A stretch of DNA of 21,565 nucleotides from a virus. The stretch lies in UHGV virus genome UHGV-0142951. One strand, written 5' to 3'. Positions 13,155-20,807 of the stretch are shown piece after piece. The first letter of the stretch is position 1, and each line of letters begins with the position of its first letter. The notes beneath the pieces were generated by a model that saw only the letters and a list, made by a program, of their open reading frames with translations, had not been told where the DNA came from and ran no database searches. Both the position numbers and the translations under genes were made by a program.

Positions 13155-14621
13155 ATGGCTACTTGGCAAGGAACAAATGGCGGATTGTTGGCTGGTATCG
13201 GTGGTGTCAACTCAAACGCTCCGAGCGTAAATGACATCGGCAATACGCTTCAGCTTATCAGGCAGAACAATGATATTGAGCGTTCAGGCGCTAACAATGT
13301 TGGGCTGACTGCTTTGCAAGGCCTTTCAGGTATTGCAGGGGTGTTTCAGCAGGAAAAGCAGGCTCAGCGGCAGAAAGAATTTCAGCAGGCGTACGCTAAT
13401 GCTTATGCGTCTGGTGATCGCGGTGCTTTGCGTCAGTTGGCTACTCAATATCCAGACCAGATTGAATCTGTTCGCAAAGGCATGGGATTCATTGATGAAG
13501 ACCAGCGCAATTCTATCGGCACCTTAGCGGCTGGCGCACGCCTTGCGGCCTCGTCTCCAGAAGCAATGCAATCATGGCTGCAAAACAACGCCAAGGAACT
13601 GACTCGCGTCGGTGTTGACCCTAATAACGTTGCTCAGATGTATCAGCAGAATCCTTCAGGATTTGGTGAGTTTGTTGATCACCTTGGGATGGCTGCTCTT
13701 GGTCCGATTGATTACTTCAATGTTCAGGACAAGATGGCTGGTCGTGAGATTGACCGAGGCAGACTGGCAGAGACAATCCGCAGCAATCAGGCTGGTGAAG
13801 CACTTCAGGCGAGAGGGCAGGATATTAGCCGAGCAAATGCGTTAACGTCAGCATATGCACCAACAGCCGCAATGCAGAATTACAATCAGTACGCGCAAAT
13901 GTTAAAGGTAGATCCAGATGGTGCAGCGGCATTTGCGGCAGCGGCGGGAATTAATCCCAATGCTAAGAAATTACTTAAGGTTGAAACCAATCCTGATGGC
14001 TCGGTAACTAAGTATTACACCGATGGCAGCGAGGAAGCCGGAAAACTAAACCAACCTATATCTGGTGATGGCATTAAACCAATTAGCTTGCCACAAGCGC
14101 AAAGCATCATAGATAAGGCTAATGAGGGTTCCAAGAAGGCGGCGGGATTTGCTTTGCGATTAAAAGATTCAATGGACTCAATGAATCAGCTTAGTAAAAG
14201 CATTGACCCTAAGCGAGTTGCATTAATAAATCGCTCTCTTGGTGATGGAACTATTGCAAATTTAAGCCTATCACCAGCGGAGCAGCAATATATGGTAAAT
14301 GCGAGAGACGCCTTGTATGCAATTTTGCGCCCAGAAACAGGTGCAGCAATTACTCTGCCAGAGATGCAGGAGTATTCCAAAATGTACCTCCCTCAGCCCG
14401 GTGATTCCAAGGCTGCTACTGAAACAAAAATGCGAAAAATGCAGGGCCAATATAACTCATTACGTGGTCAGTCTGGTCGCGTTTATGATGCTTTGGTGGT
14501 TTCAAGTGCTGCAAATAGTCAACAACAGAGCAATAGCCAACAACCGACAAATACCCAACAGCAGCAGAGTCAATCCGGATCATATACCTCAAAATCAGGC
14601 ATTCAATTTACGGTGGAATGA
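13155..14621 (+). CDS. Ejection protein, P22 gp20-like
   Basis: ORF track 13155..14621, 488 aa. AAGGGG upstream; synteny between the gp7-like and gp16-like genes. Confidence 0.7.
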
Positions 14622-17037: not shown

Positions 17038-17523
17038 TTATCTAATGTTGCTGCTACTGTTGCATGTGACGGTGTTTCCAAATCCTGAATTGCAGTTTGT
17101 ATATGTGTCAACGCGTGTTGGGTAAGGTTGAGTTATAACAGGCTGGCGCGCTTTTTGCTCGATCGCTTGCATTGTGTTTACAGCCTGATAATTCAATAAA
17201 GCCTGCTGGAATGCTTGGCTTTGCGCTATTTGTTGGGCTTGTTCTTGGCTTTGTAATTGAACATAAAGATTCTGAAGTTCAAGTCTTGCCTGTGTGTCAC
17301 TTATCTTGCCTTCATCGACACCTTGCCCGAGCATCTTCGCAGCAAGGACATACAGCTTAGGTGTTGGTGCTGATGCCATGCGAGAGTCGTTCTTCAAGCT
17401 GGCATCAAGGCAATTAGCCATATCGCTAAGCTTTGGATAGCGTTGCTCGCAACTTGCCTGATAGTCGCTTACTTTTGCGCACCCAGCCAGCAGAAGCGGG
17501 ATAATTAACAGTGATTTTTTCAT
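17038..17523 (-). CDS. Predicted lipoprotein of unknown function, 161 aa (accessory gene)
   Basis: Internal ATG (17521-17523) of track ORF 17038..17574 with AAGGAGAG upstream. Signal peptide MKKSLLIIPLLLAGC with lipobox LLAGC; Gln-rich helical middle; Cys-containing C-terminus. Lower GC than the structural genes (by eye). Confidence 0.7.
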   Translation of the reverse strand: MKKSLLIIPLLLAGCAKVSDYQASCEQRYPKLSDMANCLDASLKNDSRMASAPTPKLYVLAAKMLGQGVDEGKISDTQARLELQNLYVQLQSQEQAQQIAQSQAFQQALLNYQAVNTMQAIEQKARQPVITQPYPTRVDTYTNCNSGFGNTVTCNSSSNIR

Positions 17524-17557
17524 ATAATTAACTCTCCTTAGTTTTGCGCAGGATACC

Positions 17558-17923
17558 ATGAAAAAAGTTAACATTGGAAATGTACCAAAGATGCTAGTAC
17601 CGCTCTTTGAGAGCGGTACAATTGTGTTTTGTAGAGACTTTCCAGAATGGCAACGCCTGCATCAAAAACTTGGCGTTGACGTGCATGACTCGGACGCCAA
17701 CGGAGCGTCTCATACAATGAGTAGCGAGAATGGTGTTTTGCATGTGATAGGCGTGTTCAATGGCAAACTATCTACTATTGCCCATGAGTGCGCTCACATG
17801 GCATTCGATATCTGCTCAAGGGTAGGTGTTGATGTTGAACCAGGAAGAGCCAACGAGACTTACTGCTACTTAATGAGCAGGCTTGTTGAGTTCTGCGAGC
17901 GACATATCAAAAAGCCGGAGTGA
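17558..17923 (+). CDS. Small HExxH zinc-metallopeptidase-like protein, 121 aa (possibly ImmA/IrrE-like)
   Basis: ORF track 17558..17923. Motif STIAHECAHMAF (His76-Glu77-x-x-His80) with candidate third ligand in VEPGRANETY (Glu94/Glu100); the context resembles the recalled ImmA/IrrE signature (..LAHELGH.. / ..E.EAN..). Divergent from the lipoprotein gene, start codons 34 bp apart. Confidence 0.55.
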   Translation: MKKVNIGNVPKMLVPLFESGTIVFCRDFPEWQRLHQKLGVDVHDSDANGASHTMSSENGVLHVIGVFNGKLSTIAHECAHMAFDICSRVGVDVEPGRANETYCYLMSRLVEFCERHIKKPE

Positions 17924-17931
17924 CCCGGCTT
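17907..17931 (-). terminator. Candidate rho-independent terminator for the minus-strand small gene
   Basis: 7-bp stem AAGCCGG (17912-17918) / CCGGCTT (17925-17931), loop AGTGAC. On the minus strand it is followed by a U-run (plus-strand A-run 17909-13), 5 nt past the stop of gene 17937..18116. Confidence 0.45.
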
Positions 17932-17936
17932 GAGTA

Positions 17937-18116
17937 TTACTTTTTGCTGTCTGGAGTTCGCTTATCCAATACCCAGCCATGACCTGGCTTTGTTGTTGGT
18001 GGAAGCCTTTCGTTGTCCTTGACGGTTGCAAAATTGTCTTTCTTACCGCCGCGTGGGCCAACTTCTTGGTATATTCCGCCGTTTTTTCCTGTGTTTTCAC
18101 CTGGTTTTTTCGCCAT
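17937..18116 (-). CDS. Small basic Gly/Pro-rich protein, 59 aa (YjzC-like pattern, tentative)
   Basis: Internal ATG (18114-18116) of track ORF 17937..18131 with GAGG 6 nt upstream. Protein MAKKPGENTGKNGGIYQEVGPRGGKKDNFATVKDNERLPPTTKPGHGWVLDKRTPDSKK, no hydrophobic segment. Has its own candidate promoter and terminator. Confidence 0.5.
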   Translation of the reverse strand: MAKKPGENTGKNGGIYQEVGPRGGKKDNFATVKDNERLPPTTKPGHGWVLDKRTPDSKK

Positions 18117-18152
18117 GATATACCTCAACATATACCCGTTATTGGGCGATTA

Positions 18153-18181
18153 AATATTGATCTCATTTTATAAGTAGTCAA
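18153..18181 (-). promoter_or_regulatory. Candidate sigma70 promoter for the minus-strand small basic protein gene
   Basis: Minus strand reads TTGACT (plus 18176-18181), 17-nt spacer, AATATT (plus 18153-18158), about 35 nt upstream of the RBS. Confidence 0.3.
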
Positions 18182-18206
18182 TATGGCCCAGGTAAATGCA
18201 AAAATT

Positions 18207-18231
18207 AACCCACCGTCAGGTGGGTTTTTTT
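18207..18231 (+). terminator. Rho-independent terminator (strong on the + strand, A/T-flanked on both sides)
   Basis: Perfect 8-bp stem AACCCACC (18207-18214) / GGTGGGTT (18219-18226), loop GTCA, then a T7 run (18225-18231). Confidence 0.7.
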
Positions 18232-18263: not shown

Positions 18264-18449
18264 ATGACCATAGAAGAACGTCTGAACAACATTGAGTTGA
18301 ATCAAACCCTGCTTGACCAGCGACTTTCAGATCTTGAGCTTAAAGATCTAGATGTGCAAATATCAGAAGCAGAAGCCAAGCTCTCCAGCTTAAACCACCG
18401 CAGGAAGCAAATCCGCGACAGAATTACTCGTGGACGCGGAGGCTGTTAA
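18264..18449 (+). CDS. Small coiled-coil protein with basic C-terminus, 61 aa, hypothetical
   Basis: ORF track 18264..18449. AAGGA RBS 7 nt upstream. Heptad-like Leu/Ile pattern (IEERLNNIELNQTLLDQRLSDLELKDLDV) then RRKQIRDRITRGRGGC. Confidence 0.45.
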   Translation: MTIEERLNNIELNQTLLDQRLSDLELKDLDVQISEAEAKLSSLNHRRKQIRDRITRGRGGC

Positions 18450-18526: not shown

Positions 18527-19063
18527 TCAAACAACCCACCAGTTTGCCTGATTGGATACCAGCCTTGCAGTTTTTATGGAATTAATTATGCCATGCTCAA
18601 GAGCCTTGTTAGCATCCAAAATGGTCGAGTCTGCTATCAGGGATGCCCACCTAATATGGGTTCCGATGTCGATATTGAACGTCTCAACGAAGCGATCAAG
18701 ATCGTTATCGAGGCATTTCCCGTACTCTCTCAATCTGGCATGGTCGGCGGCTGGGGAGGCAAAGCACCATAATAGAGGATGTAACAGGAATCTTGATAAT
18801 GGGTTTGCGAAACGTTCTGAGCCAGCCAGGAAAACGATATTAGCTATGGATTCAACATTGCTTATGTTGTGAGTTCTAACGGTAACAGGGAGTGACTTAA
18901 GAAAGTTATACGCAGTAAAGCCAGCGGCAGTTTCCCCTCCCTGACTTGATATATGGATATTTAATTCAGTTGCGCCTTGAGATAATGCGGTGAGACAGTG
19001 GTTCTGAAGTTGCCCAACAGTGGCAGTGTTAACGGGGCATAAGAAATGAATTGTGTGCAGCAT
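18527..19063 (-). CDS. ClpP-fold (S14-like) serine peptidase, 178 aa, translationally coupled to the upstream Mnt-like gene
   Basis: ORF track 18527..19063. Hand alignment to recalled E. coli ClpP: ISSQGGETAAG vs INSPGGVITAG; Ser72 (VESIA) aligns with the ClpP catalytic Ser (GQAASMG); RFANPLSRFLLHP vs RFCLPNSRVMIHQP places His95 at the catalytic His; C-terminal ALEHGIINSI vs AVEYGLVDSI with Asp145/Asp150 nearby. Start ATG overlaps the upstream stop by 1 nt (TAATG). AAGGA RBS lies inside the upstream gene. Confidence 0.65.
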   Translation of the reverse strand: MLHTIHFLCPVNTATVGQLQNHCLTALSQGATELNIHISSQGGETAAGFTAYNFLKSLPVTVRTHNISNVESIANIVFLAGSERFANPLSRFLLHPLLWCFASPAADHARLREYGKCLDNDLDRFVETFNIDIGTHIRWASLIADSTILDANKALEHGIINSIKTARLVSNQANWWVV

Positions 19064-19314
19064 TATTTTTCATCCTTAGCATACATGGTCTTTAGCGTCT
19101 CAACATCGTGTTCAAGATCTATCAATCGTGATGCTATAGTTGCAAGGTCTAGTGCTTGAATGTGTTTATTTTTTTCTGTCCACGCTTCAAGTGCCGCGAC
19201 CATCTCAGCATTTAATGAACGAGAATTAGCCTCAGCCAGTTCAATAAGACGTTCCTTTATCTCTACAGGAAGCCTCAGATTCACTTGAGGGTTTTTGTAC
19301 TTACGATCAGACAT
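19063..19314 (-). CDS. mnt: Mnt-like ribbon-helix-helix repressor, 83 aa
   Basis: Track ORF 19063..19320 begins at a GTG; preferred ATG 19312-19314 with AGGA 7 nt upstream. NPQVNLRLPVEIKERLIELAEANSRSLNAEMV resembles recalled P22 Mnt (DPHFNFRMPMEVREKLKFRAEANGRSMNSELL). C-terminal helix ...VETLKTMYAKDEK. Confidence 0.7.
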   Translation of the reverse strand: MSDRKYKNPQVNLRLPVEIKERLIELAEANSRSLNAEMVAALEAWTEKNKHIQALDLATIASRLIDLEHDVETLKTMYAKDEK

Positions 19315-19331
19315 CGGCACATCCTGAATAA

Positions 19332-19571
19332 TTATTTACCATACATGGTCTTTAGCGTCTCAAGTAGCGCCTCTTTGAATTTATCAGCTTCTTGGTTAGC
19401 GAATCCTTCAAGTGAGCGAGAGCCATCAAGATTATCAACATGTTTTTGAAGGATAAGCACGATCTCTGAGTTCATTGATCTGCCGTTTTTATCCGCTTCT
19501 TGCTGAATGCGTTTCTTTAAATAGTCTGGAATCCTAATCCCCAATGGACTGATATCTCTTGCACCTTTCAT
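19332..19571 (-). CDS. Second RHH repressor paralog, 79 aa (Arc-like N-terminus MKG..., Mnt-like C-terminal extension)
   Basis: Internal ATG (19569-19571) of track ORF 19332..19613 with GGAGGAGAA directly upstream. ISPLGIRIPDYLKKRIQQEADKNGRSMNSEIV is an RHH fold; C-terminus ...LLETLKTMYGK. Occupies the mnt position beside the divergent promoter region. Confidence 0.7.
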   Translation of the reverse strand: MKGARDISPLGIRIPDYLKKRIQQEADKNGRSMNSEIVLILQKHVDNLDGSRSLEGFANQEADKFKEALLETLKTMYGK

Positions 19572-19596
19572 TTCTCCTCCTGCACGCTGTGCATAG

Positions 19597-19666
19597 CTAC
19601 ACAGTGTAGGCAAAAAAATTTTGACTTTAAATAAACACGGTGTAGTATTTAGTTATCACGGTGTAG
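19597..19666. promoter_or_regulatory. Candidate operator cluster in the divergent mnt/arc control region
   Basis: Near-perfect palindrome CTACACAGTGTAG (19597-19609) plus two direct copies of CACGGTGTAG (19636-19645 and 19657-19666) spaced 21 bp apart. Four TGTAG/CTACA half-sites within about 70 bp between divergent RHH genes. Confidence 0.45.
19621..19648 (+). promoter_or_regulatory. Candidate Pant-like sigma70 promoter driving the arc-like and ant genes
   Basis: TTGACT (19621-19626), 16-nt spacer, TAGTAT (19643-19648). Overlapped by the CACGGTGTAG repeats. About 30 nt upstream of the arc-like RBS AAGGGGA. Confidence 0.4.
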
Positions 19667-19679
19667 CAAGCAAGGGGAA

Positions 19680-19820
19680 ATGAAAGTTAGAGACATCGCT
19701 CCATTAGGGATTCGTATCCCGCCAGAGATTAAAGAAAAATTGAAGGAAAAGGCTAAGGAGGAGGGCAGGTCTTTAAATTCAGAAATAGTGCAGCGTCTTA
19801 TTCGCAGCCTAAAAAGTTGA
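19680..19820 (+). CDS. arc: Arc-like ribbon-helix-helix repressor, 46 aa (below the ORF-track size cutoff)
   Basis: ATG 19680 with AAGGGGA upstream; stop TGA 19818-19820. My translation: MKVRDIAPLGIRIPPEIKEKLKEKAKEEGRSLNSEIVQRLIRSLKS, an RHH fold (beta strand then ..GRSLNSEI.. helix) as in recalled P22 Arc. Position immediately upstream of ant as in P22 immI. Confidence 0.7.
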   Translation: MKVRDIAPLGIRIPPEIKEKLKEKAKEEGRSLNSEIVQRLIRSLKS

Positions 19821-19884
19821 AGCCCCAACTGCGGGAACAGTCAGGGCTTCGGTATCGTAAAACCACGCATAGGAATTAACGACA
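19811..19884 (-). ncRNA. Candidate sar-like antisense RNA covering the ant ribosome-binding site
   Basis: Minus-strand promoter-like TTGATT (plus 19913-19918), 17 nt, TACACT (plus 19890-19895) inside the first ant codons. Minus-strand hairpin (7-bp stem 19819-19825 / 19844-19850 with inner 4-bp stem) followed by AAC then a U5 run (plus A-run 19811-19815). Predicted RNA of about 70 nt, complementary to the ant SD and start, analogous to P22 sar. Confidence 0.3.
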
Positions 19885-20807
19885 TGACGAGTGTAGCAAT
19901 TGCAGAACATACAATCAACGTTCCATTCCACGGAACAAATCTCTTTTTGGTCAGCATTAACAATGAACCTTACGTTCCTATGAAACCCGTTGTAGAAGGC
20001 ATGGGTATGGTTTGGGCTGCTCAATTTGTTAAATTAAAACAGAGATTTGTCAAAGGTATTTCGGAAATCGAAATACCTTCTGCTGGCGGTAAACAGTTAA
20101 TGATATGCCTTGCCTTTCGTAAGTTTGCGGCTTGGCTTTCAAGCATTCAGCCAAACAAAGTCCGCCCTGAAATCCGCGACAAGGTAATCCAGTATCAGGA
20201 AGAGTGTGACGATGTGCTCTACGAATACTGGACTAAAGGCCATGTAGTTAACCCGCGCAAAGCTAAAAAGGCATTGCCGGGGAAAATCACCACTGAACAG
20301 CAGGAAGCCATTAAACAACTCGTCATGAGTCGCGGTCAGTCTCTTCCAAAAGAAAAACAGGCTAAGGCGATGATCACCATGTGGTCGTCACTGAAATCCC
20401 ATTTTGGATGTTCGTACAAAGAGATCAGTGAGGAGCAGTTTACCGAAGCACTATCACTTGCAGCTCGAGTTCCACTTGAAGGTGAGTTCATTGGCAAACA
20501 AGAGAAGAAAGCAAACGAGCTTTCTGCAAAAGAAGCAAACAGCCTTGTATGGTTATGGGATTATGCCAACCGCTCACAGGCATTATTCCGCGAACTGTAT
20601 CCGGCGCTAAAACAAATTCAATCGAACTATTCCGGCAGATGTCATGACTGCGGTTATGAGTTCTCCCGTATTATCGATATGGCGAGAGATGTTTTAATCA
20701 ACCATACACGAGATGTTGATATTAATGAGCCAGACGGACCAACGAATCTTTCCGCATGGATGAGACTTAAGAATAAAGAATTACCTCCTTCAGTACATAA
20801 CTACTGA
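19884..20807 (+). CDS. ant: Antirepressor (P22 Ant-like)
   Basis: ORF track 19884..20807, 307 aa. AGGA 8 nt upstream; directly downstream of the arc-like gene and followed by a terminator, as in P22 immI. N-terminal region (VPFHGTNLFLVSINNEPYVPMKPVVEGMGMVWAAQ) is consistent with the P22 antirepressor N-terminal domain as recalled. Confidence 0.65.
   Translation: MTSVAIAEHTINVPFHGTNLFLVSINNEPYVPMKPVVEGMGMVWAAQFVKLKQRFVKGISEIEIPSAGGKQLMICLAFRKFAAWLSSIQPNKVRPEIRDKVIQYQEECDDVLYEYWTKGHVVNPRKAKKALPGKITTEQQEAIKQLVMSRGQSLPKEKQAKAMITMWSSLKSHFGCSYKEISEEQFTEALSLAARVPLEGEFIGKQEKKANELSAKEANSLVWLWDYANRSQALFRELYPALKQIQSNYSGRCHDCGYEFSRIIDMARDVLINHTRDVDINEPDGPTNLSAWMRLKNKELPPSVHNY

What the first reader, a model, noticed from the sequence alone, without database searches (positions are those of the whole stretch)
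17558..17923. Minimal HExxH metallopeptidase-like protein (ImmA/IrrE-like?) with no adjacent HTH partner
Seen: a 121-aa protein with a single HExxH motif (AHECAHMAF, His76/Glu77/His80) and downstream Glu residues (VEPGRANETY) that could supply the third zinc ligand. ImmA/IrrE/CapP-type peptidases normally sit beside an HTH repressor that they cleave on a DNA-damage signal (ICE and phage induction, CBASS regulation). Here no HTH gene is adjacent; the nearest regulators are RHH proteins about 1.1 kb away. It could be a signal-responsive protease acting on the RHH repressors, an anti-defence protease, or a toxin. It is unusually short for the family.
Basis: partly seen in the sequence, partly recalled or inferred. 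Interest (0 to 1): 0.6.

Follow-up and report, generated by a model that had tools for sequence, protein, structure and literature searches.

The report
Small phage zinc-protease-like gene hkcC
The 121-residue protein is real, conserved and has the fold and invariant residues of a very small zinc protease, but it is the long-known, never-characterised "hkcC" gene of P22/HK620-type phages and belongs to a large orphan phage family, not to the repressor-cleaving ImmA/IrrE proteases.

Summary
The ORF at 17558-17923 (+) exists as described. It is the ortholog (99% identical) of HK620 hkcC. That ORF also exists in P22 between sieA and orf59a/mnt and is unannotated in several P22 records. It is under strong purifying selection (dN/dS 0.03 against P22).

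It belongs to a large family of standalone proteins of about 120 aa: 514 clusters at 50% identity, all sampled members in PHROG 1365 ("unknown function"). Across 116 diverse members the only invariant residues are H76, E77, H80 and E100, a gluzincin-type HExxH...E signature. AlphaFold2 (pLDDT 89) gives the order β-β-α-β-β-α(HExxH)-α(E100), as in a zincin core. Matches to solved zincins are weak.

Nothing supports ImmA/IrrE (M78) or SprT membership, and there is no HTH partner. A true member sits in a virulent N4-like phage.

The gene is co-oriented with the late operon, and I found no promoter of its own. It forms a sharply bounded mosaic unit, usually with a convergent YjzC-like gene (orf59a). 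That pairing recurs in unrelated siphovirus prophages but is facultative.

Best reading: an accessory, late-transcribed cytoplasmic zinc metallopeptidase with an unknown substrate.

The parts
17558..17923 (+). hkcC-type CDS (121 aa plus stop): standalone minimal zincin-like protein, PHROG 1365
   Evidence: ORF list and sequence. 99.2% identical to HK620 hkcC and the P22 ORF. phrog_1365 E=1.7e-39. dN/dS 0.03 against P22. AF2 pLDDT 89.3.
17783..17797 (+). Codons for H76-E77-C78-A79-H80 (HExxH) on helix 71-88
   Evidence: Invariant in 19 close and 116 diverse homologs. Helix assignment.
17855..17857 (+). Codon for E100, the candidate third zinc ligand, 20 residues after H80 at the start of helix 100-116; followed by Y104 (95% conserved)
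   Evidence: E100 is invariant in A2; N99 is 75% and Y104 95% conserved. Metal geometry was not measured.
17550..17553 (+). AGGA Shine-Dalgarno, 4 nt before the ATG
   Evidence: Read directly from the sequence. Conserved in P22 and HK620.
17558..17588 (-). Region equivalent to the annotated P22 PsieA promoter, which drives the leftward moron gene. It lies inside the first 31 nt of the hkcC ORF.
   Evidence: P22-pbi annotation: promoter at 13861-13891, the same start as the ORF at 13861-14223. Assigned here by homology only; the consensus scan did not call it.
17534..18230 (.). Conserved mosaic unit (hkcC, terminator, orf59a and its promoter-like site, terminator) shared with P22/HK620-like phages
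   Evidence: blastn boundaries over 83 loci: left edge at 17534 in 61, right edge near 18230 in about 69 and at 17945 in 10.
17912..17931 (-). Intrinsic-terminator-like hairpin with T-run for leftward transcription (orf59a/mnt), overlapping the hkcC stop codon. Annotated as t-mnt in P22 and as a bidirectional terminator in HK620.
   Evidence: Scan; annotations.
17937..18116 (-). orf59a homolog (59 aa; an upstream in-frame ATG at 18131 would give 64 aa): YjzC-family small basic beta protein, convergent to hkcC
   Evidence: ORF. PF14168 E=0.0016, below cutoff. phrog_3202 E=7e-31. Homologs named YjzC family. AF2 pLDDT 86.5 with three strands. pI 9.9.
18153..18181 (-). Sigma-70-like promoter candidate for orf59a (TTGACT-17-AATATT)
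   Evidence: Consensus scan only.
18207..18226 (.). Bidirectional terminator-like hairpin at the right edge of the conserved unit
   Evidence: Called on both strands by the scan. Coincides with the homology boundary.
17038..17523 (-). Divergent neighbour: predicted lipoprotein (lipobox LLAGC; start at the internal ATG with an AAGGAG SD) in the slot that holds sieA in P22 and hkcB in HK620
   Evidence: ORF and sequence. phrog_6067 E=2.5e-108, unknown function. Slot comparison.

Best explanation
The ORF is the hkcC gene of P22/HK620-type phages. It encodes a soluble, cytoplasmic, standalone protein of about 13.6 kDa with the core of a gluzincin-type zinc metallopeptidase. H76 and H80 on the active-site helix, together with E100 at the start of the next helix, would bind zinc. 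E77 would be the catalytic base, and a small beta-sheet would bind the substrate. It is an accessory ('moron') gene. It is co-oriented with the late operon and I found no recognisable promoter of its own, so it is most likely made by antiterminated late transcription reading on from gene 16 towards the tailspike gene. Shown here: the gene is real, the motif is conserved, the fold is confidently predicted, and the genomic layout is as described. Inferred: zinc binding, catalysis, timing of expression, and the idea that it cuts one or a few specific proteins during lytic growth. The substrate is unknown.
Confidence: 0.6

Rival explanations
1. HkcC works with the convergent YjzC-like Orf59a as a two-gene module. 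Orf59a is made leftward in the lysogen (downstream of mnt in P22). HkcC is made rightward late in lytic growth and cleaves, inactivates or is inhibited by Orf59a, for example as self-immunity against a prophage-expressed protein.
For: An orf59a homolog lies convergently about 20 bp downstream in 79 of 93 loci. These include siphovirus-type prophages of Rosenbergiella, Klebsiella oxytoca and Xenorhabdus and a JGI metagenome contig, where both genes have diverged (HkcC 60-63%, Orf59a 72-81% identity) and the pair sits between the tail chaperone and tape measure genes. The pair is also kept in Morganella and Proteus prophages. The phage collection holds 52 records with each gene at >=95% identity, though I did not check that they are the same records. 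Orf59a is a folded, very basic small protein.
Against: The pairing is facultative both ways. In 10 P22-like loci orf59a is replaced by an unrelated 74-aa membrane protein while hkcC stays 99-100% identical. Orf59a homologs stand alone in S. bongori and metagenome contigs. Distant HkcC relatives lack it. The two genes share a 700-bp recombination unit and a terminator, so linkage may be purely physical. No interaction prediction could be run.
Confidence: 0.15
2. HkcC is a counter-defence or host-takeover protease. It is co-expressed with structural and packaging proteins and cleaves a host immunity protein or another host factor.
For: The family is phage-specific, small, standalone and accessory, and occurs in both temperate and virulent phages. 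In N4-like phCDa it heads a cluster of small genes. In P22-like and lambdoid phages it sits beside terminase or within structural operons. It lies in a region that otherwise holds exclusion and conversion morons.
Against: This rests on context alone. There is no similarity to any known anti-defence protein, no PADLOC hit, and no experimental report in the searched literature.
Confidence: 0.2
3. One reading: an ImmA/IrrE-like signal-responsive protease that cleaves the immI ribbon-helix-helix repressors (Mnt/Arc) or another repressor.
For: It has the same motif class as M78 (HExxH plus a downstream Glu). In P22-like phages, and in Proteus and Klebsiella prophages, the gene travels near Arc-domain genes and an antirepressor.
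Against: No M78 profile match for the query or for 116 relatives. Only weak structural similarity to CapP and IrrE-labelled models. No HTH partner anywhere. HK620 keeps hkcC although mnt and ant are only remnants there. The Rosenbergiella and JGI prophages show no Arc gene within 6 kb. Paralogs lie in lysis-terminase regions, and a member sits in a virulent N4-like phage.
Confidence: 0.07
4. The zincin-like site does something other than proteolysis (another metal-dependent hydrolysis, or a purely structural or binding role).
For: No curated peptidase family claims it, and fold matches to proteases are weak and mixed with nucleosidases, macro domains and other folds.
Against: The general-base Glu (E77) is as invariant as the metal ligands over 116 sequences at 23-45% identity. 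That pattern is what a catalytic zincin site would show.
Confidence: 0.13
5. The ORF is not a gene. The DNA is conserved because it carries the PsieA promoter, terminators and recombination anchors.
For: It is unannotated in several P22 records. A promoter and a terminator are annotated within its ends. The unit has sharp mosaic boundaries.
Against: dN/dS is 0.03. Homologs at 57-63% protein identity have saturated synonymous sites. 514 protein clusters share invariant catalytic-type residues. The fold is confident.
Confidence: 0.02

Closest known systems
HK620 hkcC / the equivalent P22 ORF between sieA and orf59a (PHROG 1365)
   Same: 99.2% protein identity, same position and orientation in the 'ant moron' after gene 16, same convergent orf59a/HkcD gene and terminator. 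The literature lists it as a gene of unknown function.
   Different: Here the divergent neighbour is a lipoprotein rather than sieA or hkcB. The immI region downstream carries extra genes: a ClpP-like protein and a second RHH gene.
Gluzincin metallopeptidases (thermolysin M4, oligopeptidase M3, collagenase M9) and the minimal gluzincin scaffold
ImmA/IrrE/CapP (Peptidase_M78, PF06114)
   Same: Same motif class (HExxH plus a downstream Glu), small size, and occurrence on mobile elements.
SprT-like / SPRTN / Wss1 (PF10263)
   Same: Three of 116 family members give sub-threshold SprT-like Pfam hits (best E 1e-4). Some structurally similar viral models are labelled SprT-like. SPRTN is a weak Foldseek hit (probability 0.51).
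   Different: In SprT-type enzymes the third zinc ligand is a His (my own knowledge); here the only other invariant residue is Glu100. hhalign against E. coli SprT gives 6% probability and does not align the motif. The query itself has no Pfam hit.

Membership tests
PHROG 1365 / HK620 hkcC orthologs | Significant full-length profile match and orthologous position | tested here: met
   phrog_1365 E=1.7e-39 over residues 1-121. All 116 sampled relatives match it. 99.2% identical to hkcC at the same locus.
Zincin / gluzincin metallopeptidases (superfamily level) | HExxH motif on an alpha-helix, conserved across homologs | tested here: met
   H76, E77 and H80 are invariant in 116 sequences. The motif lies within predicted helix 71-88.
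Zincin / gluzincin metallopeptidases (superfamily level) | Third metal ligand is a Glu on the helix that follows the active-site helix | tested here: inconclusive
   E100 is invariant and begins helix 100-116, 20 residues after H80.
Zincin / gluzincin metallopeptidases (superfamily level) | Upper-subdomain topology: mixed beta-sheet plus backing helix before the active-site helix; structural match to solved zincins | tested here: inconclusive
Zincin / gluzincin metallopeptidases (superfamily level) | Zinc binding and peptide-bond hydrolysis | not testable with these tools
   Needs purified protein, metal analysis and activity assays with an E77A control.
Peptidase_M78 (ImmA/IrrE/CapP) | Significant match to the PF06114 (DUF955) profile | tested here: not met
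   No hit for the query at E<=10. None for 116 relatives at E<=0.01. No NCBIfam ImmA/IrrE hit.
Peptidase_M78 (ImmA/IrrE/CapP) | Adjacent cognate HTH (Xre/CapH-type) regulator gene | tested here: not met
   Neighbours are a lipoprotein gene and a YjzC-like gene; the nearest regulators are RHH proteins 1.1 kb away. No HTH neighbour in P22, HK620, ST64T, mEp044, phCDa or the prophage contexts.
Peptidase_M78 (ImmA/IrrE/CapP) | Structural similarity to the IrrE/ImmA/CapP protease domain | tested here: inconclusive
SprT-like (PF10263) | Significant profile match or profile-sequence relationship to SprT | tested here: not met
   No hit for the query. Three of 116 relatives have sub-threshold hits. 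hhalign against E. coli SprT (YggI) gives probability 6% with the motif not aligned.
SprT-like (PF10263) | Third zinc ligand is a conserved His after HExxH (my own knowledge of SPRTN/Wss1) | tested here: not met
   No third invariant His. The only invariant residues are H76, E77, H80 and E100.
Known anti-phage defence proteins (PADLOC-DB) | Match to a defence-system profile | tested here: not met
   No hit at E<=0.1 for HkcC, Orf59a, the lipoprotein or the ClpP-like protein.

The most novel reading that the evidence does not exclude
PHROG 1365 is an undescribed, widespread family of roughly 120-residue phage zinc proteases, about the smallest self-contained zincins. They would be expressed with late genes to cleave a specific target: either a host immunity or host factor protein, or the co-inherited prophage-expressed YjzC-like protein Orf59a. 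In the second case hkcC-orf59a would be a new convergent two-gene lysogeny/lysis switch module that inserts into late operons of unrelated phages.
Probability: 0.2. Interest if true: 0.7.

Novelty: new variant of a known kind. Interest (0 to 1): 0.42.

Why it matters
P22 and HK620 are model phages, yet this conserved gene in the well-studied immI/sieA region is unannotated in several P22 records and has no assigned function. If it is an active protease, it would define a minimal zincin scaffold of about 120 aa with more than 500 sequence clusters and no Pfam or NCBIfam model. It would also point to an unrecognised proteolytic step in lytic growth of many phages, possibly counter-defence or removal of a prophage-expressed protein. 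The gene is easy to test in P22 genetics. More practically, the result corrects a tempting misannotation: this is not ImmA/IrrE and not SprT.

Tried and rejected
1. I suspected the ORF might be the P22 ORFan pid. Rejected: pid is 86 aa and lies between orf25 and orf80 at P22 nt 40357-40998.
2. I looked for a second copy in the window's lysis-terminase region, where the paralog sits in ST64T. None found.
3. A tblastn hit in Klebsiella phage K60PH164C1 under a 'tape measure' gene is antisense to that gene at E=5e-4, so I treated it as spurious.
4. Domain fusions in the 10 longest relatives gave no informative Pfam domain.
5. hhalign against E. coli SprT was negative.
6. PDB sequence searches with both profiles gave only marginal metalloprotease hits centred on the motif.
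7. The afdb50 fold library was unavailable.
8. The search for related loci failed with the broad alignment A2. With A1 it returned only near-identical viral loci and 3 genome loci.
9. Literature searches for hkcC, SprT-like anti-defence, YjzC and minigluzincin found no functional study. The YjzC hit was a yeast strain name.
10. The BTP1 transcriptome paper does not cover this gene.
11. tblastn with distant members added no new cultured-phage contexts.

Full report
**1. Observation**

An AGGA Shine-Dalgarno lies 4 nt before the ATG. No HTH gene is adjacent. The flanking genes are a divergent predicted lipoprotein (17038..17523, -) and a convergent 59-aa gene (17937..18116, -). The nearest regulators are Arc-domain RHH genes starting 1.1 kb downstream.

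**2. Where the window comes from and what the ORF is called**

The window is the late-operon end plus the immI region of a P22-like podovirus. It runs through lysis genes, terminase, portal, ejection proteins, Mnt/Arc/Ant and onward.

The ORF is 99.2% identical to HK620 hkcC ('unknown'). It is equally close to an ORF at P22 nt 13861-14223, between sieA and orf59a/mnt. Several P22 records do not annotate that ORF. Instead they annotate the sieA promoter inside its first 31 nt and the mnt terminator at its 3' end. The epsilon34 genome paper lists hkcC and 59a as two P22 genes of unknown function in the 'ant moron'. I found no functional study. The P22 ORFan pid is a different locus.

**3. Is it a real gene?**

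Yes.
- Against the P22 copy, dN=0.003 and dS=0.113, so omega is about 0.03.
- Homologs at 57-63% protein identity have saturated synonymous sites.
- A word-indexed search found 32 relatives.
- An exhaustive profile search found 514 clusters (at 50% identity) with E<=1e-3. Nearly all are standalone proteins of 110-140 aa.

**4. The motif**

In 19 close homologs H76, E77 and H80 are invariant and N99-E100-T101 nearly so. In 116 diverse members (23-45% identical to the query, one at 73%) the only invariant residues are H76, E77, H80 and E100. G49 is 99% conserved and Y104 95%. HExxH followed by a Glu 20 residues after the second His is the gluzincin arrangement. Thermolysin has the same spacing, H146 to E166 (my own knowledge).

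**5. Structure**

AlphaFold2 with the family alignment gives pLDDT 89.3 and pTM 0.83. The element order is strand 11-13, strand 21-25, helix 28-37, strands 49-56 and 59-66, helix 71-88 (carrying HExxH), and helix 100-116 (starting at E100). That is the order of a zincin upper subdomain: sheet, backing helix, active-site helix, glutamate helix.

Matches to solved structures are weak.
- Foldseek against PDB has nothing below E=0.1; SPRTN appears at probability 0.51.
- Against predicted viral structures there are 26 hits at E<=1e-3 (TM up to 0.82). Almost all are uncharacterised phage proteins and two are labelled SprT-like. One labelled 'Metalloprotease' follows just above that threshold (E 1.5e-3). 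IrrE-labelled models appear only at E>0.03.

I could not inspect coordinates, so the metal-site geometry is inferred, not shown.

**6. Family assignment**

- Pfam: no hit for the query, even at E<=10, apart from a spurious lantibiotic match.
- Pfam on 116 relatives: 3 sub-threshold SprT-like hits, 1 DUF5700 hit, no M78 hit.
- NCBIfam and PADLOC: nothing.
- PHROGs: all 116 fall in phrog_1365, 'unknown function'.
- hhalign of the family profile against E. coli SprT: 6% probability, and the motif is not aligned.
- PDB sequence searches: only marginal hits, all zinc metalloproteases, aligned around the motif.

The protein is therefore zincin-like at the superfamily level. It is not a member of M78 or SprT-like by any test I could run.

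**7. Genomic anatomy**

Comparison with 83 related loci shows a sharply bounded unit. The left edge is at 17534, 24 bp before the ATG, in 61 loci. The right edge is near 18230 in about 69 loci and at 17945 in 10.

Left of the unit the leftward gene varies: this lipoprotein, sieA in P22, hkcB in HK620, and others. By the P22 annotation, its promoter lies inside the hkcC 5' end.

Right of hkcC, a leftward terminator (17931-17912) overlaps the stop codon. Beyond it lie orf59a, a promoter-like site (18181-18153) and a bidirectional terminator (18207-18226).

I found no sigma-70-like promoter upstream of hkcC. The gene is on the same strand as genes 20/16 and the tailspike gene. In P22, late transcripts are known to read through immI to gene 9 under gp23 antitermination (my own knowledge). 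Late expression is therefore the most economical inference, but it is not shown.

**8. The orf59a partner question**

An orf59a homolog sits convergently about 20 bp downstream of hkcC in 79 of 93 loci. The pair also recurs, with both genes diverged, in other prophages:
- In siphovirus-type prophages of Rosenbergiella, Klebsiella oxytoca and Xenorhabdus and in a JGI metagenome contig, it is inserted between the tail chaperone and tape measure genes.
- In a Proteus prophage it travels with Arc-like and antirepressor-like genes.
- In Morganella P22-like prophages it keeps the mnt-orf59a arrangement.

Orf59a belongs to the YjzC family (PF14168 below cutoff; phrog_3202). It has pI 9.9 and is predicted to be a folded three-stranded beta protein with pLDDT 86.5.

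The pairing is facultative.
- Ten loci replace orf59a with a 74-aa membrane protein.
- Orf59a homologs stand alone in S. bongori and metagenome contigs.
- Distant HkcC relatives lack it.

Because the two genes share one 700-bp recombination unit, physical linkage alone could explain their co-inheritance.

**9. Wider family contexts**

A paralog about 38% identical (ST64T/L orf129, epsilon34 gene 70) lies in the late operon between the lysis genes and small terminase. Some phage records show two matching places for the query, which may be both copies. In lambdoid mEp044 the homolog lies after the lysozyme gene and ahead of large unannotated ORFs, a position like that of the P22-like paralogs.

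In N4-like Pseudomonas phage phCDa (Schitoviridae; virulent by my own knowledge of the group), gene 24 is a true member (E=4.4e-23, HECFH...ANETY). It heads a run of small genes. The family-wide function therefore cannot be cleavage of a lysogeny repressor.

**10. Mechanism**

Best supported (confidence about 0.6): a soluble, late-transcribed accessory zinc metallopeptidase with a minimal gluzincin core, acting on a specific protein. The target is open. Candidate targets and alternatives, with my estimates:
- A host immunity or host factor protein: about 0.2.
- Orf59a: about 0.15.
- A non-proteolytic role: about 0.13.
- Not a gene at all: about 0.02, effectively excluded.

**11. Novelty and verdict**

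The ORF itself is already known by name (hkcC) but has no function, and its family has no curated model. What this analysis adds is that it is a large orphan family of minimal HExxH...E proteins with a confident zincin-like fold.

It is a new variant of a known kind, not a new kind. It is of moderate interest, raised by being in model phages where it can be tested directly. The ImmA/IrrE label should not be used.

Noticed in passing
window 18527-19063 (-), with 19063-19320 (-): A 178-aa ClpP-related protein lies directly downstream of the Mnt-like RHH gene, with its start codon overlapping the end of that gene, as if the two were co-transcribed. Evidence: PF00574 E=2e-11; NCBIfam Clp_rel_HeadMat and PHROG 'head maturation protease' hits, all far below the full-length cutoffs. 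P22 itself has no such gene here, but the gene recurs in other IMG/VR loci (e.g. L048). A serine-protease-like moron inside immI is unexplained. There was no PADLOC hit.
   Followed up: partly
window 17038-17523 (-): A predicted lipoprotein (MKKSLLIIPLLLAGC lipobox, strong AAGGAG SD; phrog_6067, unknown function) fills the slot that holds the superinfection-exclusion gene sieA in P22 and hkcB in HK620. It is presumably driven by the same promoter embedded in the hkcC 5' end. It is present in 19 of 84 loci. It is a candidate exclusion or conversion function.
   Followed up: partly
window 19063-19320 (-), 19332-19613 (-), 19680-19820 (+), 19884-20807 (+): The immI region has two tandem leftward Arc-domain RHH genes (one Mnt-like of 85 aa, one of 93 aa), plus a rightward Arc homolog and a P22-type antirepressor (P22_AR_N/C). 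That is one more RHH gene than the P22 layout.
   Followed up: no
window 18264-18449 (+): A 61-aa coiled-coil-like ORF (phrog_7586, E=1e-43, unknown function) sits on the + strand between the bidirectional terminator at 18207-18226 and the ClpP-like gene. It is conserved in other loci (L008, L048).
   Followed up: no
window 17597-17619 (+): A perfect 10-bp hairpin (GTACCGCTCT...AGAGCGGTAC) followed by a T-rich run lies inside the hkcC coding region, over the conserved VPLFESGT codons. The P22 and HK620 copies have one mismatch in the stem. It could be a chance by-product of the coding sequence or a regulatory or termination element near PsieA.
   Followed up: no
loci L008, L010, L048 and 7 others, about 14 bp after the hkcC stop: In 10 P22-like viral contigs the convergent slot after hkcC holds a 74-aa predicted two-helix membrane protein instead of orf59a, while hkcC stays 99-100% identical. 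Both flanks of hkcC therefore behave as swappable leftward moron slots.
   Followed up: partly
L003 3501-3890 (ST64T orf-129); also epsilon34 gene 70, phage L Orf129: A paralog about 38% identical with the same HExxH...NETY signature lies between the lysis cassette/orf-118 and the small terminase gene in other P22-like phages. Some records (UAB_Phi20, ST160, Phi75) show two matching places for the query, which may be both copies. This window has only the immI copy.
   Followed up: yes
L089 10241-11854 (-) (Klebsiella oxytoca prophage): Near the hkcC-orf59a pair, after the tape measure gene, this prophage carries a 537-aa SNIPE/T5orf172/MUG113-domain protein next to Arc-domain genes. This is another accessory, defence-like insertion within a tail operon.
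   Followed up: no
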